Positions 1,956-47,175 of a DNA stretch of 60,979 bases are shown piece by piece (within the stretch, counting starts at the first letter, position 1; each line of letters opens with the position of its first letter). The DNA comes from a virus. Its lineage: Duplodnaviria; Caudoviricetes. Both the position numbers and the translations under genes were made by a program. The stretch is taken from positions 1 through 60,979 of the IMG/VR virus record IMGVR_UViG_3300023174_000178; one strand, 5' to 3'. Below the pieces are notes generated by a model that was given only the letters and a program-made list of their open reading frames with translations, was not told the origin of the DNA and did no database searches.

Positions 1956-1967
1956 TATTTATAAATA
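1956..1967. promoter_or_regulatory. Overlapping divergent T4-type late promoters (palindrome TATTTATAAATA)
   Basis: TATAAATA on + at 1960-1967 and on - at 1963-1956, in the short gap between divergent gp4 and gp48. Confidence 0.8.
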
Positions 1968-28268: not shown

Positions 28269-29993
28269 ATGTCAGGCGCAAATAATAGATTTAAGGTTGA
28301 TAACGGTCTAGTTGCTTCTGGCAACGCGATCTTCTATGATCGTGTCGACGTAGAAGCCAACGCGCACTTTAAAAACGACTTGTTCGTTGTATCTGGTAAC
28401 CTTGTAGTGAATGGATCTCTTGTATATGCTAACGTTACCATCGGTCAAGGTGGTGTTCTTCTCGTAGCAGATCAACAACCACTCGGTAATACTTCAAATC
28501 GTTTTAACGCTTTCGTATTTAATACGACGTCTTACGGAACGTTACGACCAGATGCAAACGGTGGAGCTCTTGGTACTACGACTGCTCGCTTCGACGTCTT
28601 TGCAAATAATATTACTGTTACGAATACAGTCAACTTCGGAAGTGGTGCAGGCGTTAACTCGACTCTCTATACTGGCACAGCAAGCAACGCTAACACCGTA
28701 TACAATATCTCGGCGAATGGTATCGTGGTGAGAACCGGTACAGGAACCGGCACGACAGTATCGATTGCTTCCACGAACGGCATAAGCGTAACAAACGGTA
28801 ATGGTGTTTCTGGAAATCCTACGATTGGATTCGTAGCGAATGCTGGTTTAACAGTGAATGCTGCAGGTGTGTTTGTTGATGCATCTGCTATTACTGTCGG
28901 TACACTTCCAGTGAATCGCGGTGGTACTGCAGGAAATGTTAATAATCTTTTACCTACGCAATCGGCTGGCGTAAAGGGTTACGTACTCTCGTCAAATGGT
29001 GCTGACGGCGTTCTTTATTGGTCTGCACTTGCTGGACCTCAAGGTGTGCAAGGTGCAACTGGTGCTCAAGGCGCTCAAGGCGCAACTGGTTCGCAAGGAC
29101 CAGTCGGTGCTCAAGGTGCTGCTTCGACTGTTCCTGGTCCACAAGGAGCACAAGGTATAACTGGAGCCCAAGGTGCTCAAGGAACAACCGGTTCTCAAGG
29201 ACCACAAGGACCTTCGGTTCAAGGACCAACTGGACCTCAAGGTGCTCAAGGTATTACAGGTGCACAAGGACCGCAAGGAACAACTGGTGCACAAGGCGCT
29301 GCTTCGACAGTTCCTGGCCCTCAAGGTGCTCAAGGTATTACAGGTGCACAAGGACCACAGGGGCCGCAAGGTCTTACAGGTGCACAAGGTGCTGCTTCGA
29401 CGGTTGCTGGTCCTCAAGGTTCTCAAGGTGCAACCGGTGCTCAAGGCGCAACCGGACCACAAGGTGCACAAGGTGTAACTGGCGCACAGGGCGCAACCGG
29501 TGCTCAAGGTGCAGCAGGCACAAGTATAACGGGTGCTCAAGGTGCAACTGGACCACAAGGTGCACAAGGAAGTGCAGCTTCAGCCGCTGCGCCTATTCTC
29601 AGACACGTCACTTCAGGATTTACAAGTGGCGGTCAAGTTTTTGTAACAGGGACTCAACCTACTGCTTCTGCAGCTGGTGATATCTGGATCGACACAGCTG
29701 GAACTACTGGATATACACAAAGTCTCTCGTCAAATGGATGGACTAAGTTGCCAAACGGAGCAATTATTCAGTGGGGAACGGTATCTATTACTCCGAATAA
29801 TACAGGATCTGGAACCTTCCCAACATCATTTACTACAGTCGGTCGAGCAGTAATGAACGGCGTAGGAGATCTGGGTGTATTTGGACAAGCTTCGAAAGGT
29901 GCAACCATTTATAGTGTATCGACAACTGGTTTCAGTTGGTTTAATGGAGATGAAACTTCTCACACTGGTTACTGGTTAGCAATGGGATATTAA
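28269..29993 (+). CDS. Collagen-like tail fibre
   Basis: About 180 aa of G-X-Y (GPQ/GAQ/GAT) repeats; C-terminal [16 protein letters not shown] tail-fibre tip motif; followed by a chaperone gene. Confidence 0.88.
29032..29575 (+). repeat. Collagen G-X-Y repeat tract
   Basis: [12 protein letters not shown] triplets with recurring GAASTV(P/A) interruptions. Confidence 0.95.
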
Positions 29994-33692: not shown

Positions 33693-34538
33693 ATGGCAAA
33701 TAAGTTTCAATTCAAGCGCACGACAGTCGCTGGTCGTACAGCTAATACTACTGACGTAGCAAACTCGGCCTTTATTGATAAGGGCGAATTCGCGGTCAAC
33801 TTAACTGACCGTAAAGTATTCTCTTCAGATGCAGCCAATGCCATCTTCGAAGTTGGATCAAATCTTTCTTCTCTCGCTGTCACTACAGTTGTCGCCAACG
33901 GTTCTTCAGGCACCGCGGGACAAGTTCTCACGTCAAACGGATCCGGCGTTTATTGGGGAGTAGGAGGCGGTGGAGGCAATACATATGCAAGTATTGCAAC
34001 TTACACCTACACTATCGCTTCGAATACTACCGTTATTACTGGCGCAGATGATAATACAGATGTTCTTTCGTATACCGCTGGACTCGAAAGCGTATACCTG
34101 AACGGTTCGAAACAAGTTCTTACAACAGATTACTTGACAACAAACTCTGGTGCTATTACATTTACTTCAAACGTATTTGCTGCTGACGTCGTAGAAATTG
34201 TTTCTGTAACTCCTCAGCTTTCTGTTTTAGTCGCAGATTCAAACACTCGAACAACAAACACCACATCAAATACGACAGTCGATTCTTTTAGTGCCGCTAA
34301 TTATCGATCTGCTAAATATTATGTACAAATCACTTCGGGTACTGACTATCACGTGACAGAAGTTTTGCTTATTCATGATGGTACAGAAGTTTATATTACT
34401 GAATACGGCACAGTTTATTCAAACACATCACTCGGCAACGTAAGTGCAAATATTAATACTGGTTATGTAGAGTTGCTCGTCGCTCCTTCCAATTCAGCGA
34501 GTACAGTAAAAACTCGTCGTCTTGCGATAGAAGTATAA
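33693..34538 (+). CDS. Short fibre/adaptor protein
   Basis: FQFKRT...GEFAVNLTDRKVF N-terminus; C-terminal YRSAKYYVQ...EVLLIHDG....TEYGTV domain shared with ORF 26206. Confidence 0.75.
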   Translation: MANKFQFKRTTVAGRTANTTDVANSAFIDKGEFAVNLTDRKVFSSDAANAIFEVGSNLSSLAVTTVVANGSSGTAGQVLTSNGSGVYWGVGGGGGNTYASIATYTYTIASNTTVITGADDNTDVLSYTAGLESVYLNGSKQVLTTDYLTTNSGAITFTSNVFAADVVEIVSVTPQLSVLVADSNTRTTNTTSNTTVDSFSAANYRSAKYYVQITSGTDYHVTEVLLIHDGTEVYITEYGTVYSNTSLGNVSANINTGYVELLVAPSNSASTVKTRRLAIEV

Positions 34539-34541
34539 ATA
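34534..34541 (+). promoter_or_regulatory. T4-type late promoter
   Basis: TATAAATA overlapping the upstream stop, 30 nt before ORF 34571. Confidence 0.78.
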
Positions 34542-34570: not shown

Positions 34571-37500
34571 ATGGCAACTCCAAATAATTTTCGCGTTAAG
34601 AACGGCTTAACTGCCGCAAATGGTGTAACGGTTACTACAGGAAACGTAGTAATTTCGAACGGTCAGCTCATAATTAATGGGACTGCCATTAACTCGACCA
34701 GCATCAGTCAATCTGCAAACAATGCATACGCTAACGCAGTCAACTATGCAGACGGTAAAGCAGCAGATGCCTATGGTAATGCCGTAGCAGTCGCGACCGG
34801 TTCTTCAACCAATGCATATAATAATGCAGTTGCTTTTGCTGCGAATGCTAGCAATCTCACGACTGGAACACTTTCTCTGAATCGCCTTCCTGCGACAGTC
34901 AACGTATCTCTTGCTCTAAATGTTACAAATACTGTTAACATTTCAACGAGTAATTTAACAGTTTCTCAGGCAAATGATGTTGCCACTCTTACAGGAACTG
35001 TACTTTCATTTACAGATAGCCTGACAGAATCTACCAACACATATTACGCTGCAGTTAGTCATGATAAACTGATTACTTCAAAAAATTATGCTGTTGCTAA
35101 CGTACTCTATTCAGACTACGGTGAAATTTCTCGAACTGGAATGTTTGCGGTTGTAGGTATAGACACAACGAATAGCTCGATCTATGTTCGAGGCGTGACT
35201 GTCAATACCTCGGTGATCGCAATCGGAAATACTACAGTATCCAGCTTCATCAACTCGACTGCCTTTTCTGGTAATGGTGCATCGCTTACTTCTGTGAATG
35301 CCGCGACAGTTGGTGGAAACTCTGCTTCAGATCTTCGAACATATGCAGAAACGTATGCATCGAATGCTACCAATCTCGCATCTGGTACTGTGAATTCTGC
35401 ACGTCTTCCATCAGCGAATGATACGACAGCAGGCGCAGTCATTCTTGTTAACTCAGTAACAAACACTTCTATTACCGCAGCAGCTTCTGCCAACTCGGTA
35501 AAAACTGCTTATGATGCTGCGATCGCAGCGAATACGGCTGGAGGAACTGCAGCAGCAACTGCTTATAGTAACGGTGTAACGTATACTGATAATAAGGCAG
35601 CAAACGCATACTCGAACGCTATTGCAATTGCAGCGAATGCCACGAATCTGACTTCTGGTACAGTAAACATTTCTCGTATTCCAACAGTCGACGCAGTCAA
35701 TAACACTTCGATTACACTGATTCCAGTGGCTAATAATGTGAAGACTGCTTATGACGCTGCTATTACTGCAAATACAAATGCCGCTTCTGCTCTTGCAAAT
35801 GCTGCCACAGCATATACGAATGCTATCGCAATTGCTGCGAATGCAACCAATCTGACTTCTGGTACAGTTAACGCCGCTCGTCTTCCATCAGCAAATGCTA
35901 CTGTAGCAGGCGCAACACTTCTTGTCGATTCAGTATCGAATACTTCGCCGACTGCAGCAGCTTCTGCCAACTCTGTAAAGACTGCTTATGATGCGGCCAT
36001 AGCTGCTAATACGCTTGCCAATACTGCAGCAACTTCAGCAACTTCAGCATATTCAAACGCGGTGACTTACACAGATACGAAGATCGGAACAGCAAATACG
36101 GCAATGGTCGCGAATGCTGGAGCTGCATATACCAATGCAATTACGATCGCAGCAAATGCAACGAATCTGGCTTCTGGTACAGTAGCATTCGCTCGTCTTC
36201 CTTCTGTCGACTCGATTAGCAATACTTCGGTCGCGTTAGTGCCAGTTGCTAACAATGTGAAGACTGCATATGATGCGGCTATCACTGCCAATACAAACGC
36301 TCAAACAGCACTCACTGCCGCAGGAGCTGCTTATACCAATGCTGTATCTTATACAGACACAAAAATAGGTACAGCTAACACCGCCATGGCAGCGAATGCC
36401 GCGGCTGCTTACACGAATGCTATCGCATTTGCAGCGAATGCTTCGAATGCAAACAACGGTACTCTTGCTGAAGCTCGTCTTCCATACCGTATGAATCAAG
36501 ATCTGAGAACAACAGATTCTCCAACTTTTGCAAACGGCACATTTAATGGTTCTGTTTCAGTCGGTGGAAGCCTTACAATTACTGGTAACTTGATTTCAAC
36601 TAACGTACAAACTCTTTCTGTTGCCGATCCTCTGATTAAATTAGCTGTGAATAACCCGAGCGACTTGCTTTGGATTGGATTCACTGGTCACTATAGTGGA
36701 TCAGGTAATACAACAAACCATGCTGGTCTTGTTCGTAGTCCAGATACAAAAGAATTCATCCTCATGTCGACATATGGAGATGAAACGGCTGTTGCAAATA
36801 ATAATACGATCAACGTCGCCGACGCATCGTTTTCGTATGCAAACTTGCAAGTCAGCTTATTAAAGGCAGGAAACTCTACGGTATTCTCTACGATCAATTC
36901 TACGGCATTCAGTCAAACTGCTAACAATGCGACGAATCTTGGTGGACAAGCTGCAGCTTATTATACCAATGCGACAAATATCAGTACAGGCACACTTCCT
37001 TTTGCAAGATTGCCTTCGTTGTTTATTGGAACAACTACAATTCAGTCTACGAGTGCCGCCCAAGCAGTAAGCGGTATCACTACACTTGCCGCAGGTAACA
37101 CTACGATTACTGGATTTGTCAATGCTACTTCTTCGGTTAACTCGGCTATCTTAGCAGTCGGAACAAACTTTGTTGCAAATACTACACAAACAACACTAGC
37201 AACAAATATGCTTTTGAATAATGATAAACAATTAAGATTCCAAACAGCTAATACATCATCATATGCTTACTTTGTACAGCAAAGCGATGATAATTTTGTA
37301 TTGTATAGTTCAAATACCGCTGGCGGTGCAAGACCTATTTGGAGTGTTTTTGCTAATAGTATAACATCAAGTTTTAGCTTATCGGTTCCGACATCTATGA
37401 GTGCAAACCTTGTGATGGCCAACAACAACATCACTCGACCAATTCTGACAGGTTACACTGAGCACGAAGTTGCTAATACGGCAGCGACTGGATCATATAG

Positions 37501-37786
37501 CCTCGATTGCGGCGCAGCCAACTTCTGGGATCTTACACTCACTGGTAATATTACAATTGCTCCGACTAACGTCCCACCAGCCACGAGAATGTGGGCAGGA
37601 ACGATCGCCGCGAAGCAAGATGCAACAGGAGGTCGTACGATCACGTGGCCTACTGGCAGTAAATATCCAGGCGGAGTCGCTCCTCCTGCAACAACAACCG
37701 CGAATGCTCTCGATATCTGGTCGCTGATGACTTATGATGCTGGTACTTCTTGGATTGTTTCTCTGACGGTGAAGGGCGCCGCATAA
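34571..37786 (+). CDS. Long tail fibre protein with alternating repeats
   Basis: AY.NA...AANATNL.SGTV...RLP units and tail-fibre-repeat-like G...L..S....S...AA.ANSVK.AYD; C-terminal LTLTGNIT...QDATGGRTITWP...YPGG..P domain. Confidence 0.8.
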   Translation: MATPNNFRVKNGLTAANGVTVTTGNVVISNGQLIINGTAINSTSISQSANNAYANAVNYADGKAADAYGNAVAVATGSSTNAYNNAVAFAANASNLTTGTLSLNRLPATVNVSLALNVTNTVNISTSNLTVSQANDVATLTGTVLSFTDSLTESTNTYYAAVSHDKLITSKNYAVANVLYSDYGEISRTGMFAVVGIDTTNSSIYVRGVTVNTSVIAIGNTTVSSFINSTAFSGNGASLTSVNAATVGGNSASDLRTYAETYASNATNLASGTVNSARLPSANDTTAGAVILVNSVTNTSITAAASANSVKTAYDAAIAANTAGGTAAATAYSNGVTYTDNKAANAYSNAIAIAANATNLTSGTVNISRIPTVDAVNNTSITLIPVANNVKTAYDAAITANTNAASALANAATAYTNAIAIAANATNLTSGTVNAARLPSANATVAGATLLVDSVSNTSPTAAASANSVKTAYDAAIAANTLANTAATSATSAYSNAVTYTDTKIGTANTAMVANAGAAYTNAITIAANATNLASGTVAFARLPSVDSISNTSVALVPVANNVKTAYDAAITANTNAQTALTAAGAAYTNAVSYTDTKIGTANTAMAANAAAAYTNAIAFAANASNANNGTLAEARLPYRMNQDLRTTDSPTFANGTFNGSVSVGGSLTITGNLISTNVQTLSVADPLIKLAVNNPSDLLWIGFTGHYSGSGNTTNHAGLVRSPDTKEFILMSTYGDETAVANNNTINVADASFSYANLQVSLLKAGNSTVFSTINSTAFSQTANNATNLGGQAAAYYTNATNISTGTLPFARLPSLFIGTTTIQSTSAAQAVSGITTLAAGNTTITGFVNATSSVNSAILAVGTNFVANTTQTTLATNMLLNNDKQLRFQTANTSSYAYFVQQSDDNFVLYSSNTAGGARPIWSVFANSITSSFSLSVPTSMSANLVMANNNITRPILTGYTEHEVANTAATGSYSLDCGAANFWDLTLTGNITIAPTNVPPATRMWAGTIAAKQDATGGRTITWPTGSKYPGGVAPPATTTANALDIWSLMTYDAGTSWIVSLTVKGAA
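35350..36490 (+). repeat. ABAB repeat array in the fibre shaft
   Basis: A = SAN.T.AGA..LV.SV.NTS.TAAASANSVKTAYDAA (near 35410, 35890); B = VD...NTS..L.PVANNVKTAYDAAITANTNA (near 35680, 36200). Confidence 0.85.
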
Positions 37787-39681
37787 TGAGTATCGGTGGT
37801 GGTTCAAAGTTTACATTAGAGAAAACGTGGCGTGGAGCTGGAACTGGAACGACCAAGTTTAACAGTCCAGGAAACATCGCGATTCCTTATGGCAGAAACA
37901 GCGTTCTTGTTTCTGGTCGAGGTGGCACAGGAACTGCACTCGTTCCTGGCCCCGGAACTGGAACATTTAATATCGTTGCCGGTAATGCCACTGGAACTTA
38001 TAACGTAATTCCTGGCAATGCCACTGGAACTTTCAACATCGTTCCTGGTAATGCGACTGGTACATTCAACATCGTACCAGGAAATATTGCCAACTACAAC
38101 ATTATTTTCCCAGGAACTGGCACGTTTAATATCTTAAATCCTGGAACCGGCGTGTATAACATCATTCCTGGCCCAGGAACTGGTACTTTTAATATCGTTC
38201 CAGGAAATTCGACTGGTACTTTTAATATCGTTCCAGGAAATGCAACCGGTACGTTTAATAAAGTTCCAGGTACTGGTTCAACTTTTAACATCGTCCCAGG
38301 AACAGGAACTGGCACGTTTAACATCGTTGCTGGAACAGGAACAGGTACTTTCAACATCGTACCAGGAAATATTGCCAACTACAACATTATTTTCCCAGGA
38401 ACCGGCACGTTTAACAAAGTTCCAGGTAATATTTCTGGCTATAACATTATTTTCCCAGGAACTGGCACGTTTAACATTGTTGCTGGAACAGGAACAGGTA
38501 CGTTTAACAAAGTTCCTGGTCCAGTAGCCAATTACAACATCGTTCCAGGAAATTCCACTGGTACGTTTAACGTCGTTCCAGGTAACGTGTCAGGTTATAA
38601 CATCGTTCCAGGTAACGTGTCAGGTTATAACGTAAATCCAGGCAACGTGGTAGGATATAACGTCGTTCCAGGAAATGCGACCGGTACTTATAACGTAGTT
38701 CCAGGCATACCGGGCAATAAAGCTACAAATGCATTTATCAGTCCAAAATTTGGATATACACCGGCTTTTTATAATGCTCCTGGTCCTCCATCTCCAGGTC
38801 CGCAAAACTTTAATGCGCCTTCGAATGGCCCTGCAAACTATAACTCTCCTTCAAACGGGCCAGCAAACTTTAATGCAGCGAGCAATGGTCCTGCAAACTT
38901 TAACGCTGCTTCAAATGGGCCAGCAAACTTTAACCCTGCTACCAATGGTCCTGCAAACTTCAATGCACCGACTAATGGCCCCCAAAACTTTAACCCTGCA
39001 ACCAATGGTCCTCAGAACTTCAACGTAGCGAATGGTCCTGCAAACTTCAATGCACCCACTAACGGGCCTCAGAACTTCAACGTAGCCAATGGTCCTGCTA
39101 ACTACAATGCTCCGACTGGAGGTCCTCAAAACTTTAACGCGCCGACAAATGGTCCTCAGAATTTTAACCCTGCAACGAATGGCCCGCAAAACTTCAACCC
39201 TGCAACGAATGGTCCTCAGAATTTTAACCCTGCAACCAACGGTCCTGCAAACTTTAATCCAGCGACAAATGGCCCACAAAACTTCAACGCGCCTACCAAT
39301 GGCCCGCAAAACTTTAACGTAGCCAATGGTCCACAAAACTTTAACGTAGCAAATGGCCCTGCAAACTACAACGCGCCAACCAATGGGCCTCAGAATTTCA
39401 ATCCTGCGACTAACGGACCGCAGAATTTCAACCCAGCGACAAACGGTCCACAGAACTTTAATCCAGCAACAAATGGTCCACAAAACTTTAATACGCCAAC
39501 TCCAGCTGTTCCAGGAAATCCATCGAATGCTCTAGGCATTACTTTCCCAGGATCAAATGCCGGAGGTACACCTGCTCCTGTAATAAATAGTCAGACGGCA
39601 AGCTACTATTCTTATCCGGATGGTCAATCACATTCGGTAACTGTAGCTCCTGGAGGATATATAGATATTACTATTGAATAA
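37786..39681 (+). CDS. Gly/Pro/Asn-rich protein: glycine-rich adhesin-like frame with a mirror-symmetric 24+24 repeat insert
   Basis: ATG overlaps the upstream stop (TAATG). Termini FNSPGNIAIPYGRNSVLVSGRGG ... PGNPSNALG..FPG..AGG ... GGYIDITIE resemble glycine-rich fibre tip domains; the middle is (GTFNIVPGNAT)-type x24 then (NGPQNFNPAT)-type x24. Confidence 0.85.
   Translation: MSIGGGSKFTLEKTWRGAGTGTTKFNSPGNIAIPYGRNSVLVSGRGGTGTALVPGPGTGTFNIVAGNATGTYNVIPGNATGTFNIVPGNATGTFNIVPGNIANYNIIFPGTGTFNILNPGTGVYNIIPGPGTGTFNIVPGNSTGTFNIVPGNATGTFNKVPGTGSTFNIVPGTGTGTFNIVAGTGTGTFNIVPGNIANYNIIFPGTGTFNKVPGNISGYNIIFPGTGTFNIVAGTGTGTFNKVPGPVANYNIVPGNSTGTFNVVPGNVSGYNIVPGNVSGYNVNPGNVVGYNVVPGNATGTYNVVPGIPGNKATNAFISPKFGYTPAFYNAPGPPSPGPQNFNAPSNGPANYNSPSNGPANFNAASNGPANFNAASNGPANFNPATNGPANFNAPTNGPQNFNPATNGPQNFNVANGPANFNAPTNGPQNFNVANGPANYNAPTGGPQNFNAPTNGPQNFNPATNGPQNFNPATNGPQNFNPATNGPANFNPATNGPQNFNAPTNGPQNFNVANGPQNFNVANGPANYNAPTNGPQNFNPATNGPQNFNPATNGPQNFNPATNGPQNFNTPTPAVPGNPSNALGITFPGSNAGGTPAPVINSQTASYYSYPDGQSHSVTVAPGGYIDITIE
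37960..38706 (+). repeat. Outgoing arm: 24 units of 10-11 aa, consensus GT(F/Y)NIVPGNAT
   Basis: Counted from the translation; includes an exact 53 bp DNA duplication at 38065 and 38350. Confidence 0.92.
38797..39501 (+). repeat. Return arm: 24 units of 9-10 aa, consensus NGP(Q/A)N(F/Y)NPAT
   Basis: Counted from the translation; four short NGPQNFNVA units. Confidence 0.92.
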
Positions 39682-39686
39682 GTGAT

Positions 39687-39714
39687 TTGACAAGGATTTA
39701 CTATGCCATATAAT
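39687..39714 (+). promoter_or_regulatory. Consensus sigma70-type promoter
   Basis: TTGACA (39687-39692), 16 nt spacer, TATAAT (39709-39714); straddles the ATG at 39703. Confidence 0.45.
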
Positions 39715-40296
39715 ATCCCTAAGTATGGGAAACAATTGAACTGCTTTGCTGTATGGACAGGAGGATTTACTCCTGAAGAAGTCGATAAAATCATCGACCT
39801 CGAAAAACTTCAAGAGTTTGAAAAAGGTAAAGTCGGGCTAGAGAAGAATGCTCCGGCCCCAGTCGAAACGCGTGATTCAGATATCTCATGGATCCATCAT
39901 GATCAACACAGCGACTGGTTATTTCAGAGAATGTCTGGAATTATATCAGTAGTCAACTACGACAACTTTATGTATGACATTGAAGGTGTCGAGGCGTTTC
40001 AATATACCAAATATGGACCAAACCAACATTATACTTGGCACTGGGATGTCGAGTTCGGTTGGCAGAAATATATAAGAAAGATATCTGCATCTCTACTTCT
40101 TTCAGATCCTTCTGAATATGAAGGTGGAGAATTAGAGATCGTAAATACTGGAAATTTTGAAAGCAAAGTCTCATTTAAACCGAATAAAGGTGACATCGTA
40201 TTTTTCGCTTCGTGGATGCCGCATCGCGTGGCACCAGTCACTTCTGGTTTTCGTAGAAGTCTTGTAGCATGGGTAATGGGTGAAAGAGAATGTTAA
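39703..40296 (+). CDS. 2OG-Fe(II) oxygenase, prolyl-4-hydroxylase/PKHD-like
   Basis: HWD (HxD), RKIS...LLSDPSEYEGGEL, HRVAPVTSG.RRSLVAW (distal H and RxS). Confidence 0.92.
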   Translation: MPYNIPKYGKQLNCFAVWTGGFTPEEVDKIIDLEKLQEFEKGKVGLEKNAPAPVETRDSDISWIHHDQHSDWLFQRMSGIISVVNYDNFMYDIEGVEAFQYTKYGPNQHYTWHWDVEFGWQKYIRKISASLLLSDPSEYEGGELEIVNTGNFESKVSFKPNKGDIVFFASWMPHRVAPVTSGFRRSLVAWVMGEREC

Positions 40297-41027
40297 GTTG
40301 GAATCCTTTTAAGAAGAAACCTATCATTGAGTTTTATTGCCATCGTGATGACGTAGCCAGTTTACCACACCCAAAACCTGCAGCTAAACATATACCCGAG
40401 TGGTATAAGAGAATTCCTCCGCTCATTACAGATGGGCGAGATGATCGTGACTGGACTGGATCACATAGTTTCACTGCAAAAAAATGTATGCCAATGATCG
40501 ATGCTATGTCGTTGGGTTATGTTATTCCTCTTATCGGCGACTTGACAGTTAGATCAAATCATGACTGCAGTACGATTGAAGTCACGTCTTCTCCACAAAT
40601 CAACGTATGCGAGTTTCATGACATTCGACAATTGGGAGAAAGAAATGCGCCAGGTTTTCCTGCGCCTCCTTTAAAGTTTGTCAATCCATGGATCGTAAAA
40701 ACAGCTCCAGGTTGGTCGACTCTTTTTATAGCTCCGATTAATAACTTTGAAAGTCATTTCACATGTCTGTCAGGATTAGTCGATACTGATACATATCCAA
40801 AAGAAGTCAATTTTCCTGCAATATGGCATACACCAAATGCTGATGTGCTTTTGCTAGCAGGAACTCCTTTGGTAATTGCAATTCCAATTAAGCGTGATGC
40901 CGTTCCATCAAAACCTACTATCAGGAACATGAAAGATGACGAGCAACGCCTGGTTAATATCATAACGAAGATGCAAAACACACGTAGAAGTGTATATACG
41001 AAAGAACTGAGAGTGCCAAGAAAATGA
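40290..41027 (+). CDS. Conserved hypothetical protein, paralog A (DUF6065-like)
   Basis: IPEWYK...KKCMP..DAM..GY.IP, KF.NPW..KT.PGWS.LF..P, G.VDTD, NFP, GTPL...IP; family often seen next to phage oxygenases. Confidence 0.7.
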   Translation: MLSWNPFKKKPIIEFYCHRDDVASLPHPKPAAKHIPEWYKRIPPLITDGRDDRDWTGSHSFTAKKCMPMIDAMSLGYVIPLIGDLTVRSNHDCSTIEVTSSPQINVCEFHDIRQLGERNAPGFPAPPLKFVNPWIVKTAPGWSTLFIAPINNFESHFTCLSGLVDTDTYPKEVNFPAIWHTPNADVLLLAGTPLVIAIPIKRDAVPSKPTIRNMKDDEQRLVNIITKMQNTRRSVYTKELRVPRK

Positions 41028-41764
41028 AAGAGATGTTTTCTTTTTTGAAACCAAAGAAAGATATTCAATTCGTAGACACGAAGAAGTTGTCTTATCATAA
41101 CTTTTCTGTTGAACGAGCCGTCGATGTTCCAACAAATACTCGTAAAGTCCAACAAGACAAGTATGGTAAGCATCTCATGCCATACTGCCCGGGAATTTTA
41201 GACTATGCTCAGTTTGGATATATCATTCCTGCATGGGTAGATATTCATATCATGGCAAATAAAGCTGGCACTTCATGGTATCTCGGAGATAAGGGCTCAA
41301 GAGGAGATCGTGGATTTGATAATGGGGTCCCAATGGAAGAAAAGTTTGTAGATGGTGCTTTTACACCAGTTGGAATTAATCCTGCTGCCATTCTATTTCC
41401 ATCTCCTTGGAAAATTTTTACTCAAAAAAATATCAGCGCGCTGCTAATGCCGGCGTTCTATCACTCTACCTTTCTTGATGATCTATACGTGACTCCAGGT
41501 TTGGTAGATTATAAAAACTTTCATGTCACCAACTTTATTTGCATGCCAAAAAGAGAATGTAATGTTCACATCAAAGCCGGAGAACCTTTAATACATGTAA
41601 TTCCTTTCCTCAACAAGGATATTACTGCTTCTGTTGGTCCTGCTACTGATGAGATGATAGATAAAACTACAAATCTCATTCCTGGTGACGATAAGCAATA
41701 CTATCGAAAGTTTATGGGAGTGAAAAAGAAATTTAATATGCAAAAAGAAGAGATTAAACAATGA
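41024..41764 (+). CDS. Conserved hypothetical protein, paralog B (DUF6065-like)
   Basis: CPGILDY...GYIIPAW.D, SPW, PGLVD, GEPLIHVIP aligning with the upstream paralog. Confidence 0.7.
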   Translation: MKEMFSFLKPKKDIQFVDTKKLSYHNFSVERAVDVPTNTRKVQQDKYGKHLMPYCPGILDYAQFGYIIPAWVDIHIMANKAGTSWYLGDKGSRGDRGFDNGVPMEEKFVDGAFTPVGINPAAILFPSPWKIFTQKNISALLMPAFYHSTFLDDLYVTPGLVDYKNFHVTNFICMPKRECNVHIKAGEPLIHVIPFLNKDITASVGPATDEMIDKTTNLIPGDDKQYYRKFMGVKKKFNMQKEEIKQ

Positions 41765-42783
41765 ATATTTTTGTTTCAGTATGCTCGTACCAAGATCCTT
41801 TACTTCCTCATACCATTAAGAGTATGATGCAAACCAAATCAAATAGAAACAACGTAGTCTATTCGATTTTTGAACAAACTCGTTATGAAGATTCATTGGC
41901 ATGTACAGAACCAGTGCTCGTAAGTCGAGATGATGTCATCTATAAAAGAATCGATCCAGAATATTCTGACGGATGTGTTTGGGCAAGATATATTAATATG
42001 CTAAACTTGACAACAGAGTATGACTTCATCTATCAAGTCGACTCTCATATGTTACACGATCTCAATTGGGATCGTTCTCTAGTTGAAGATTATAAGAGAG
42101 CGATGGATATTGCTGGAACAAATAAAGTTATCATTACTGGATCATGCAAATCATTTTCAATCGAAGAAGTAGATGGAGAGATTAAAACTTATCCTCGACA
42201 TGATGAACATGATGCTTGCAAAGTAAAATACTATACTATCGATCCTCATAATTTTATTCCAGATGTTCATGGAGATCAGATTCCATCAACTGACATGCCG
42301 CAACCGGCGTTTCATATTATGGCTGGAAACTTTTTTACGCATACTGACTGGATCGATGAAGTCGGTTTAGATCCAAAGATCTTCTTCCGCGGAGAAGAAA
42401 TCATGATGACGATGATGTCATATGCTGCTGGATATAAGATGTTTCATCATAGTAAGATAGTATCATATCATCTTGAGAACACCGGAAATTGGCATACGAA
42501 GACTCCTCCCGAAGATGCGAAGGCAGCTCGAAGAAGAGAAATACTTGCTGAAATTGGAGTGTGGAGATGGAAGCAATATCTCGAAGCATGCAGAGAAGAT
42601 CTTCTTGTTCAGTTTCATGAAGAATTTGGAATTGACTTTATTAATCTCGTCATCGAAGATCGCGCCCGAACTTATAGTCTTGATGCGATTCCTGGTAAAG
42701 TTGATGTCCTTGCCATTTCGAAGAAACAAAAGAAGAAAGTCAAGTTGCCTAAAACTCTTTTTATGAGTGAAGATGAAGAATGA
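41761..42783 (+). CDS. Glycosyltransferase resembling Skp1-hydroxyproline GlcNAc transferase (GT60/Gnt1-like)
   Basis: IFVSVCSYQDP...TI, GCVWAR, QVDSH....NWD, AGNFF, DP.IFF.GEE, GY..FH....YH. Confidence 0.82.
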   Translation: MNIFVSVCSYQDPLLPHTIKSMMQTKSNRNNVVYSIFEQTRYEDSLACTEPVLVSRDDVIYKRIDPEYSDGCVWARYINMLNLTTEYDFIYQVDSHMLHDLNWDRSLVEDYKRAMDIAGTNKVIITGSCKSFSIEEVDGEIKTYPRHDEHDACKVKYYTIDPHNFIPDVHGDQIPSTDMPQPAFHIMAGNFFTHTDWIDEVGLDPKIFFRGEEIMMTMMSYAAGYKMFHHSKIVSYHLENTGNWHTKTPPEDAKAARRREILAEIGVWRWKQYLEACREDLLVQFHEEFGIDFINLVIEDRARTYSLDAIPGKVDVLAISKKQKKKVKLPKTLFMSEDEE

Positions 42784-47154: not shown

Positions 47155-47162
47155 TATTTATA
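47155..47162 (-). promoter_or_regulatory. T4-type late promoter driving the minus-strand oxygenase/GT pair
   Basis: TATTTATA on + (TATAAATA on -), about 30 nt upstream of the 47123 start. Confidence 0.75.
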
Positions 47163-47167
47163 CGGCT

Positions 47168-47175
47168 TATAAATA
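47168..47175 (+). promoter_or_regulatory. T4-type late promoter for neck genes
   Basis: TATAAATA upstream of gp13, with a CATAAATA variant at 47184-47191. Confidence 0.8.

What the first reader, a model, noticed from the sequence alone, without database searches (positions are those of the whole stretch)
37786..39681. Mirror-symmetric repeat protein: 24 outgoing and 24 returning units co-vary in reverse order, implying a long antiparallel hairpin needle
Seen in sequence: arm 1 has 24 units around (F/Y)N (consensus GTFNIVPGNAT), then a turn IPGNKATNAFISPKFGYTPAFYNAPGPPSP, then arm 2 with 24 different units (NGPQNFNPAT). Pairing unit i of arm 1 with unit 25-i of arm 2, all four irregular arm-1 spacers (IIFPGT after units 5, 14, 16 and ILNPGT after unit 6) fall opposite the only four shortened arm-2 spacers (NFNVA). 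All seven arm-1 units preceded by NI/NV/PV (5, 14, 16, 19, 21, 22, 23) face GPA rather than GPQ units; only two other GPA units exist. ANYN at units 5 and 14 faces ANYN. Inference: the two arms zip together register by register into a long two-stranded stalk projecting from a glycine-rich adhesin-like base formed by the N- and C-termini, with the short turn as the tip. I do not recognise this architecture from described phage fibres.
Basis: partly seen in the sequence, partly recalled or inferred. Interest (0 to 1): 0.92.

Follow-up and report, generated by a model that had tools for sequence, protein, structure and literature searches.

The report
Paired-arm repeat stalk on phage fibre
A phage tail-fibre gene encodes a protein whose two long repeat arms match each other unit for unit in reverse order, which points to an undescribed out-and-back stalk whose length changes by matched gain or loss of units.

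Summary
Window 37786-39681 (+) encodes a 631-aa protein with 24 + 24 [FY]N units. A scan of 26 registers with no chosen features puts the mirror zero-shift register far on top (z 8.3, against 3.2 for the best direct register). No DNA inverted repeat explains it.

The protein belongs to a family with no Pfam, PHROG or PDB sequence match. It has 209 representatives at E<=1e-3, and two tblastn searches of cultured-phage records found none. About 50 N-terminal and 62 C-terminal residues fold together into one beta-sandwich base. The insertion between them ranges from 22 to 541 aa.

The two arms co-vary in length across relatives (r 0.94, n 43; sister-pair differences r 0.81, n 21). Ten-residue units face 11-residue units in 56 of 62 rungs. 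One relative, L002, is an exact 17/17 mirror.

The gene is translationally coupled to a fibre gene behind a T4-type late promoter motif. This pairing holds in 17 of 18 related loci.

The stalk's 3D fold was not obtained: AlphaFold2 gave arm pLDDT below 50. T4 gp37's collar and needle is a known out-and-back analogue. The scan has not noted this family on other DNA.

The parts
34534..34541 (+). T4-type late promoter motif TATAAATA ahead of the fibre gene. There is no further copy on the + strand until 47168.
   Evidence: 10 matches in the window against 3.1 expected; 0 of 100 shuffles reach 10.
34571..37786 (+). Upstream tail-fibre gene (1071 aa). Its stop overlaps the ATG of the repeat gene.
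   Evidence: PHROG phrog_9017 'tail fiber protein' on aa 929-1069, E 1.2e-13.
37358..37783 (+). C-terminal ~140-aa domain of the fibre protein (aa ~930-1071). It always accompanies the repeat gene and is the inferred docking partner of the base.
   Evidence: In 17 of 18 related loci the ORF just upstream ends with this domain (32-76% identity), although those ORFs range from 157 to 1136 aa.
37786..39681 (+). Repeat-stalk gene, 631 aa (P0001).
37786..37944 (+). N-terminal half of the split base domain (aa 1-53).
   Evidence: HMM envelope 1-53. pLDDT 86-96 for aa 21-50.
37945..38694 (+). Arm 1 (aa 54-303): 24 [FY]N units of 10-11 aa, consensus IVPGNATGTFN.
   Evidence: DNA tandem repeats of period 30, 33, 60, 96 and 153 nt.
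38695..38793 (+). Distal turn (aa 304-336). It has no Cys knob, unlike most relatives.
   Evidence: Relatives' knobs are seen.
38794..39492 (+). Arm 2 (aa 337-569): 24 [FY]N units of 9-10 aa, consensus PATNGPQNFN.
   Evidence: DNA repeats of period 27, 30, 57, 60, 90, 174 and 234 nt.
39493..39681 (+). C-terminal half of the split base domain (aa 570-631) plus the stop codon.
   Evidence: HMM envelope 569-631. pLDDT 83-96 for aa 571-631.
39703..42783 (+). Conserved downstream cassette of four genes: a 2OG-Fe(II) oxygenase (39703-40296), DUF6065 (40290-41027), a conserved unknown (41024-41764) and a PF11397 GlcNAc-type glycosyltransferase (41761-42783). These are possible modifiers of fibre proteins; the link to this gene rests on neighbourhood only.
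   Evidence: Pfam hits. Homologues sit downstream of the family gene in 15, 15, 14 and 11 of 18 loci respectively.

Best explanation
The gene encodes a late, fibre-associated virion protein of an uncultured T4-like myovirus. Its gp6-like protein is 38% identical to that of Caulobacter phage Cr30 and 34% to that of Pelagibacter phage HTVC008M.

The protein belongs to an uncharacterised family seen here only in metagenome and viral-contig collections. The first ~50 and last ~62 residues fold together into one small beta-sandwich base. Everything between is an insertion that leaves the base and returns to it as two antiparallel arms. Each arm is a chain of short units ending in aromatic-Asn. The arms hold equal numbers of units, and unit i of the outgoing arm lies beside unit 25-i of the returning arm, so the stalk is a ladder of 24 two-unit rungs. 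The far end is a 33-aa turn here; most relatives carry a Cys-bearing knob there.

Inferred, not shown:
- The base docks on the conserved C-terminal domain of the fibre protein encoded just upstream.
- The distal turn or knob contacts the host surface.
- Stalk length is set in evolution by matched gain or loss of units in both arms.

The fine fold and the oligomeric state are open. A ladder with about 4.8 A per rung would be about 12 nm long. A gp37-like needle of extended strands would be several tens of nm.
For: **Register**
- Mirror zero-shift gives z 8.31 against at most 3.2 for any direct register.
- Spacer pairing is 4/4 and GPA pairing is 7/7.

**Split base**
- Searches give confident termini only.
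- Searches align both termini to single beta-sandwich domains, best Z 5.5 and 6.2.
- Of the 181 proteins held, 133 have both halves, with inserts of 22-541 aa.

**Arm lengths across relatives**
- In the 43 unique members with exactly two Cys in the insert, residues before Cys1 against residues after Cys2 give r 0.94. The fraction is 0.58 +/- 0.06.
- In 21 non-overlapping sister pairs, the length differences of the two arms give r 0.81, p 8e-6. Of the 19 pairs that changed by 8 aa or more, 15 changed with the same sign.

**Matched pairs**
- P0048 (3+3 units) and P0042 (6+6 units) are 90% identical.
- P0012 and P0021 differ by one more 11-mer and one more 10-mer.
- P0034 and P0027 differ by +16 and +16 aa.

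**Rung complementarity**
- 11-mers of type GGNxAGxN face 10-mers of type PGNAxYN in 56 of 62 tip-anchored rungs. This used 19 of 48 parsed proteins.
- Examples: P0092 ETTTT|EEEET and P0010 ET|ET.

**Independent mirrors**
- L002 unit lengths are an exact reverse, 17/17, with 8-mers at positions 3, 6, 11 and 16 from the base in both arms.
- P0024/L009 shows 10,8,9,10,10,8,10,8 against 10,8,10,10,10,8,10,8, reading the last N-less unit of arm 2 as 10 (my reading; one search lists the rest).

**Facing duplications in this gene**
- Arm-1 units 14-15 and 16-17 are 83% identical in DNA.
- Arm-2 units 9-10 and 11-12 are 81% identical; their mirrors are arm-1 units 16-13.

**Selection on the peptide**.

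**Late fibre operon and conserved pairing with the upstream C-terminal domain**.
Against: - No structural model of the arms exists. AlphaFold2 gave pLDDT below 50 for the arms of both P0001 and the 6+6 relative P0042. Pairing is therefore inferred from sequence statistics only.
- Matching is not strict. L005 and L006 are near-identical and differ by one 13-aa unit in arm 2 only. This could be an assembly artefact of repeats. P0029 against P0027 has +16 aa in arm 2 only.
- Of 19 changed sister pairs, 4 changed with opposite signs.
- The feature-free register scan on 12 relatives was mixed. Mirror came top in L002, P0037 and L004, and tied with a direct register in P0017. Direct came top in L012, P0072 and L016. 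L015 gave nothing clear. Four relatives (L001, L014, P0067, P0002) were mis-parsed.
- A cruder length-flag test passed only 7 proteins: 4 mirror, 1 tie, 2 direct.
- In the two-Cys set the N-side is longer in 38 of the 41 members listed, by up to 57 residues (fraction 0.58).
- Related sequences are not independent.
- Docking on the upstream fibre, presence in the virion and receptor binding all rest on gene order.
- The related loci come from one broad phage lineage, so their synteny counts as few independent observations.
Confidence: 0.6

Rival explanations
1. Each arm folds on its own as a beta-solenoid, a beta-roll or a meander sheet. The two rods merely lie side by side or hinge at the turn. 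Equal length follows only from having to return to the base.
For: - Conserved aromatic-Asn at every unit is typical of stacked solenoid coils (general knowledge).
- tblastn matched arm 2 (aa 338-568) to Caulobacter phage 'pentapeptide repeat family protein' genes at 27.5% identity, E 4e-19.
- AlphaFold2 drew short strands at TFNIV positions of arm 1, at low confidence.
- Single-arm indels exist.
Against: - Unit-by-unit mirror covariation (z 8.3) needs contacts or a shared constraint at each level.
- The 10-mer:11-mer complementarity needs the same.
- So does the exact length mirror in L002.
- Pfam found no pentapeptide family in P0001.
- This rival overlaps the main reading if the two rods pack along their whole length.
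Confidence: 0.2
2. The insertion is a flexible, possibly hydroxylated and glycosylated low-complexity loop or brush. It is anchored at both ends in the base and has no defined pairing of the arms.
For: - Arm pLDDT is below 50 in two models.
- The arms are Pro/Gly/Asn/Thr-rich and almost uncharged.
- A P4H-type 2OG oxygenase and a PF11397 GlcNAc transferase follow the gene. Homologues follow the family gene in 15 and 11 of 18 loci.
Against: - A free loop does not predict a centred knob (fraction 0.58 +/- 0.06).
- It does not predict mirror register, complementary unit types or matched indels.
- Strict conservation of identical peptides despite 10-33% DNA divergence argues for a packed structure.
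- The oxygenase could instead serve the collagen-repeat fibre at 28269-29993.
Confidence: 0.1
3. The protein is a fibre assembly factor, as gp38 is in T4 itself, and not part of the virion.
For: - It sits directly downstream of a fibre gene and is translationally coupled to it.
- T4 gp38 is a chaperone for gp37 (PMC6957217, passage read).
Against: - A chaperone gives no reason for inserts of 22-541 aa with variable distal knobs and matched arms.
- Some phages carry two family genes in tandem (L014-L016).
- No sequence match to any solved chain.
Confidence: 0.1
4. The mirror pattern is chance or a by-product of repeat duplication history.
For: - Units within an arm are duplicated blocks, so there are fewer effective degrees of freedom than the permutations assume.
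- Some relatives show direct-order similarity between arms (P0036; L012, P0072 and L016).
Against: - Direct duplication gives the same order, not the reverse order.
- There is no inverted DNA repeat.
- Repeat periods differ between arms: 153 nt in arm 1, against 174 and 234 nt in arm 2.
- Two different features peak at the same register.
- Independent mirrors exist in L002 and P0024.
Confidence: 0.03

Closest known systems
T4 gp37 distal tip (D10 collar, needle, tip)
   Same: It is the end piece of a tail fibre. The chain runs out to a tip and back, so the collar is made of two separated segments (residues 811-881 and 1010-1026). The tip binds the receptor (PMC6957217, passages read).
   Different: - gp37 is a trimer whose needle holds seven iron atoms bound by His. 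The arms here contain no His.
- The insertion here is 515 aa of 48 regular units with two different unit types.
- gp37 does not appear among the fold matches listed, and the sequence search of solved chains found nothing.
- The oligomeric state here is unknown.
Gp38 adhesins of T2/S16-type Straboviridae
   Same: The gene lies at the end of the fibre module. Conserved N- and C-termini flank conserved Gly-rich motifs that alternate with variable segments. The protein sits at the tip of gp37 and binds the receptor (PMC12032242, passages read).
   Different: - Gp38 is monomeric, with an attachment domain, a beta-helix and a three-layer polyglycine-II sandwich of five Gly-rich motifs.
- It has no two-arm mirror and no length series.
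- A family profile found no solved chain at E<=1.
Pentapeptide-repeat and other beta-solenoid repeat proteins
   Same: Short tandem units with a conserved hydrophobic/aromatic and Asn position. There is a tblastn match of arm 2 to phage genes annotated 'pentapeptide repeat family protein'.
   Different: - Pfam found no pentapeptide family.
- Units are 9-11 aa.
- There are two different arms with reverse-order covariation around a turn, and both ends are fixed in one domain.
PF21722 Gly_rich_2 phage proteins
   Same: A language-model look-alike search listed a viral PF21722 cluster third for relative P0042, score 0.85. The tool rates that as a lead only.
   Different: - No PF21722 hit in 27 members at E<=0.01.
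- None in 7 short members at E<=10.
- None in a six-frame search of the window.

Membership tests
T4 gp37-type out-and-back fibre tip | A collar or base domain made of two chain segments that flank the projecting part | tested here: met
   both termini confident; both termini aligned as one domain; inserts of 22-541 aa. This shows the same topology, not homology.
T4 gp37-type out-and-back fibre tip | His motifs along the needle that bind iron on the trimer axis (PMC6957217) | tested here: not met
   there is no His in aa 54-569. The only His of the protein lies in the C-terminal base.
T4 gp37-type out-and-back fibre tip | Sequence or fold similarity to the gp37/gp12 collar | tested here: inconclusive
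   The profile search of solved chains found nothing. Fold searches give only generic beta-sandwiches with Z at most 6.2.
T4 gp37-type out-and-back fibre tip | Homotrimer | not testable with these tools
   No tool result here bears on the oligomeric state.
Gp38 adhesin (T2/S16 type) | Gene next to the distal fibre gene; the protein attaches to the fibre tip | tested here: inconclusive
   Gene order is met. Attachment was not tested.
Gp38 adhesin (T2/S16 type) | Five Gly-rich motifs forming a polyglycine-II sandwich with four variable loops (PMC12032242) | tested here: not met
   The anatomy differs: 24+24 units in two arms. No sequence match to solved chains.
Pentapeptide repeat (Pfam clan) | Match to the Pfam pentapeptide models | tested here: not met
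   the only hit of P0001 at E<=0.01 is DUF3224, 25.3 bits against a cut-off of 25, with no stretch passing on its own.
PF21722 Gly_rich_2 | Match to the family HMM | tested here: not met
   Searches gave no match. The only pointer is the weak look-alike.
The new family itself (split base plus two-arm insert) | Both the N-terminal and the C-terminal base halves are present, with the repeat insert between them | tested here: met
   P0001 has N 1-53 and C 569-631. Profile search; own-genome search.

The most novel reading that the evidence does not exclude
The stalk is a protein fold not yet seen. It would be a hetero-paired ladder in which a 10-residue unit of one arm and an 11-residue unit of the other, each ending in aromatic-Asn, form one rung. 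Phages would lengthen or shorten a receptor probe from 0 to 24 rungs by matched unit changes. The rod may be hydroxylated and glycosylated by the P4H-like oxygenase and GlcNAc-type transferase that travel with the gene.
Probability: 0.3. Interest if true: 0.85.

Novelty: new variant of a known kind. Interest (0 to 1): 0.68.

Why it matters
Receptor-binding fibres decide which cells a phage can infect. Those of uncultured marine and freshwater T4-like phages are largely unannotated. A paper on pelagimyophages reports a large host-recognition island of fibres and glycosyltransferases in which tail fibre proteins could not be identified (PMC7029224, passages read).

This family gives that island a recognisable, countable module: a conserved base, a stalk whose length can be read from the sequence, and a variable tip.

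The rung-by-rung complementarity is a rare case where sequence alone predicts long-range contacts that structure predictors miss. That makes it a good target for cryo-EM and a test case for predictors.

If the 10:11 pairing rule holds, it could also serve as a simple design rule for rods of set length.

Tried and rejected
**Structure prediction**
- AlphaFold2 of P0001 with 39 sequences and of the 6+6 relative P0042 with 23 sequences modelled only the base. The arm fold could not be read.
- Complex prediction with three copies of P0048 returned 'no answer' (score 0.00, controls not run). It counts neither for nor against a trimer.

**Fold and look-alike searches**
- Foldseek against the PDB found nothing at E<=0.001.
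- VIA-align wide searches gave only generic beta-sandwiches, Z at most 6.2.
- ESM Atlas returned nothing usable for P0001 and only a 0.85 lead for P0042.

**Family libraries**
- Pfam and PHROGs gave no family for 27 members.
- P0001 alone hits phrog_22415, of unknown function, on arm 2, and is borderline for DUF3224. I treat both as repeat noise.

**Cultured phages and genomes**
- tblastn of P0001, P0042 and P0075 found no family member. BLAST's low-complexity filter and the short base domain limit this search.
- A blastn search of the downstream region found nothing.
- A genome-contig scan with P0001 found no relative. It uses exact peptide patterns, so it sees close relatives only.

**Statistics that lacked power or were mixed**
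- Whole-string mutual information.
- The length-flag mirror test.
- The register scan on relatives.

**Ideas dropped**
- I considered and dropped an inverted DNA duplication as the cause.
- I recalled RTX beta-rolls, snow-flea antifreeze and extensin-like polyproline-II rods as possible analogues. I tested none of them, so they are not claimed.

**Literature**
- Four searches turned up no description of this family. The family has no name to search by, so this is not a claim that it is unpublished.
- Supplements were closed. The protein-cluster tables of PMC7029224 might list it.


Full report
**What is there.** Window 37786-39681 (+) is one open frame of 631 codons. Its ATG shares one base with the TAA stop of the preceding 1071-aa gene (TAATG). 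That gene's last ~140 residues match a PHROG 'tail fiber protein' family. It is preceded at 34534-34541 by TATAAATA, the T4-type late promoter motif, which is enriched in the window: 10 matches against 3.1 expected.

The window is a 60,979-base viral contig, estimated 36% complete. It carries T4-like baseplate genes. The gp6-like protein's best match is 38% identity to Caulobacter phage Cr30, and it is 34% identical to Pelagibacter phage HTVC008M. The position, among fibre genes and followed by oxygenase and glycosyltransferase genes, fits the 'host recognition cluster' described for pelagimyophages and cyanomyophages (PMC7029224, passages read).

**Checking the observation.** Splitting the protein at [FY]N gives 50 motifs. 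One lies in the N-terminal conserved part. Arm 1 holds 24, in units of 10-11 aa. One lies in the turn. Arm 2 holds 24, in units of 9-10 aa.
- The four shifted arm-1 spacers after units 5, 6, 14 and 16 face the only four 7-residue arm-2 spacers, before units 20, 19, 11 and 9.
- All seven NI/NV/PV units face GPA units.
- The two remaining GPA units face the only two NST units. This is my own addition, made after seeing the data.

Permutation gives about 1e-4 for each feature at the fixed register and 1-3e-3 when all shifts and both orientations are allowed. In direct order the best overlaps are 2 of 4 and 4 of 7.

To avoid chosen features, I summed mutual information over all positional features of the two sets of spacers for 26 registers. 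Mirror shift 0 stands alone at z 8.31, and no permutation of 300 reaches it. Its neighbour, mirror +1, has z 4.08. The best direct register has z 3.2 and direct shift 0 has z -0.19. A cruder version with whole strings as categories had no power.

The arms are not inverted repeats in DNA, and their DNA repeat periods differ. In arm 2, 34 pairs of units encode the same peptide with only 67-90% DNA identity. The peptide is therefore kept by selection.

**What it belongs to.** A word-indexed search found 38 relatives. A profile of these, run against 1.84 billion representatives, found 209 at E<=1e-3 and 47 at E<=1e-30. All relatives share an N-terminal stretch (..FxLEKTWR..TFNxPGN..IPYG...V.GRGGTG) and a C-terminal stretch (..LGV.FPGG...AP.V.......YPD..TYPV.VP.GGYV.I), as seen.

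HMMs of the two stretches hit 133 of the 181 proteins held; the rest are fragments. The sequence between them ranges from 22 aa (P0153, 133 aa in all) to 541 aa. P0001 has 515 aa, the second longest insert and the purest repeat.

The family has no match in any reference library searched here.
- No Pfam or PHROG family matches 27 members.
- No solved chain matches a family profile.
- No cultured-phage record was found.
- The scan has not noted it on other DNA.

**The base.** AlphaFold2 models of P0001 and of the 247-aa relative P0042 are confident (pLDDT 83-96) only for residues ~21-50 and the last ~60. Structure alignments of 64-101 residues run from residue ~19 to the last residue onto single beta-sandwich or jelly-roll domains. 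The best Z values are 5.5 and 6.2, below the level at which a specific relative can be named. Together with the natural short members, this shows that the two termini form one domain. The insertion must therefore go out and come back.

**The arms in relatives.** Most relatives carry a knob with a Cys pair between two runs of units.

For the 43 unique members with exactly two Cys in the insert, I compared the number of residues before the first Cys with the number after the second. These correlate with r 0.94 over a range of 16-241 residues, and the knob sits at a fraction of 0.58 +/- 0.06.

To reduce shared ancestry I took 21 non-overlapping sister pairs. The differences in the two arms correlate with r 0.81 (p 8e-6). 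Of the 19 pairs that changed by 8 aa or more, 15 changed with the same sign.

Close pairs show matched changes.
- P0048 has 3+3 units and P0042 has 6+6, at 90% identity.
- P0021 has one more 11-mer and one more 10-mer than P0012.
- P0034 has +16 aa in each arm relative to P0027.

A second rule appears. Gly-rich 11-mers (P.SGGN.AG.N) in one arm face 10-mers (P..PGNA.YN) in the other. This holds for 56 of 62 tip-anchored rungs in the 19 of 48 parsed proteins that had at least two clean units on both sides. Either type can come first, and mosaics exist such as P0092 ETTTT|EEEET and P0010 ET|ET. In P0001 the same holds in lengths: mostly 11 faces 10, and the shifted 10-mers face 9-mers.

Independent exact mirrors exist in relatives.
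- In locus L002 the unit lengths of arm 2 are the exact reverse of arm 1, 17 of 17, with 8-mers at positions 3, 6, 11 and 16 from the base.
- P0024/L009 is similar.
- In L001 I count 14 units in each arm from the sequence printed, although the residue counts differ by about 20. On that count, units rather than residues are what is matched.

**Evidence on the other side.**
- The register scan on 12 relatives was mixed. Mirror came top in L002, P0037 and L004 and tied in P0017. Direct came top in L012, P0072 and L016. L015 gave nothing clear, and four relatives were mis-parsed. Direct-order likeness is expected where arm 2 arose as a copy of arm 1, as in P0036.
- Two near-identical contigs differ by one 13-aa unit in arm 2 only (L005 and L006). 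P0029 has 16 extra residues in arm 2 only.
- Within P0001, arm 1 carries younger DNA copies: units 5 and 14 are 100% identical and several others are 93-97%. Arm 2 reaches at most 90%. The arms therefore do not always change in step.
- Even so, the two-unit tandem copy in arm 1 (units 14-17, 83%) faces one in arm 2 (units 9-12, 81%).

**Surroundings.** I compared 18 related viral loci.
- In 17 of 18, the ORF that ends 0-20 nt before the family gene finishes with a domain 32-76% identical to the last ~110-145 residues of the window's fibre protein. Those ORFs range from 157 to 1136 aa.
- Downstream, homologues of the 2OG-Fe(II) oxygenase, DUF6065, the 41024 ORF and the PF11397 GlcNAc-type transferase follow in 15, 15, 14 and 11 loci respectively.
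- Three loci carry two family-type genes in tandem.
- The loci belong to one broad lineage, so these counts are not independent.
- The oxygenase could equally serve the collagen-repeat fibre at 28269-29993.

**How it most likely works.**
- Shown: there is a split base, an out-and-back insertion and reverse-order covariation of the arms. Arm lengths co-vary across the family. The gene sits in a late fibre operon.
- Inferred: the arms pack unit against unit into a rod, the base sits on the upstream fibre's C-terminal domain, the distal turn or knob meets the host, and length is tuned by matched unit changes.
- Open: the fold and the number of chains. The rod could be a stacked ladder of about 12 nm for 24 rungs at ~4.8 A each, or a needle of extended strands several tens of nm long. 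These figures are my estimates from general geometry.

**Comparison with what is known.** T4 gp37 already shows a fibre tip that runs out and back from a collar built of two segments. The topology is therefore not new. However, gp37's iron-binding His motifs are absent here, and no similarity in sequence or fold was detected. Gp38 adhesins share the gene position and the theme of conserved Gly-rich motifs with variable parts, but they have a different anatomy. Pentapeptide and PF21722 leads failed their HMM tests.

**Verdict.** The hairpin reading is supported in topology and register, but not yet in three dimensions. I rate the family as a new variant of a known kind (out-and-back fibre tips) and unusually well suited to direct test.

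Noticed in passing
window 39687-39714 (+): A perfect 12/12 sigma-70 consensus (TTGACA, 16 nt, TATAAT) begins 6 nt after the stop of the repeat gene. Its -10 element lies inside the first codons of the 2OG oxygenase gene (ATG at 39703).
   Followed up: no
window 28269-29993 (+): A fibre protein with collagen triple-helix repeats (PF01391, E 4e-21) and a gp53-like C-terminus lies about 10 kb upstream of the P4H-type oxygenase. It is an alternative substrate for prolyl hydroxylation.
   Followed up: no
window 39703-42783, and L001, L004-L006, L008-L018: The four-gene cassette of 2OG oxygenase, DUF6065, a conserved unknown and a PF11397 GlcNAc-type transferase follows the family gene in most related loci: 15, 15, 14 and 11 of 18.
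   Followed up: partly
L005:8001-9047 and L006:8001-9008: Two near-identical viral contigs carry family genes built of 13-aa units. They differ by exactly one unit in the returning arm only. This is either a true polymorphism or a repeat collapse in assembly.
   Followed up: partly
L014:3427-7231, L015:7983-11194, L016:7983-11787: Two family-type genes stand in tandem, of 500-584 aa and 554-672 aa, before the oxygenase cassette.
   Followed up: partly
window 37945-39492: Arm 1 holds very recent DNA copies: units 5 and 14 are 100% identical, units 21/22 and 15/17 are 97%. The most similar arm-2 units reach 90%. Identical arm-2 peptides differ by 10-33% in DNA.
   Followed up: yes
P0053 and L010:8010-9581: A branch of the family has Cys-rich arms, with 24 Cys in the insert of P0053. 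The arms may be cross-linked by disulfides.
   Followed up: no
window 1956-1967, 8153, 15942, 33634, 34534, 47155-47175, 52253, 57191: TATAAATA occurs 10 times against 3.1 expected, mostly just ahead of structural genes, as T4-type late promoters would.
   Followed up: partly
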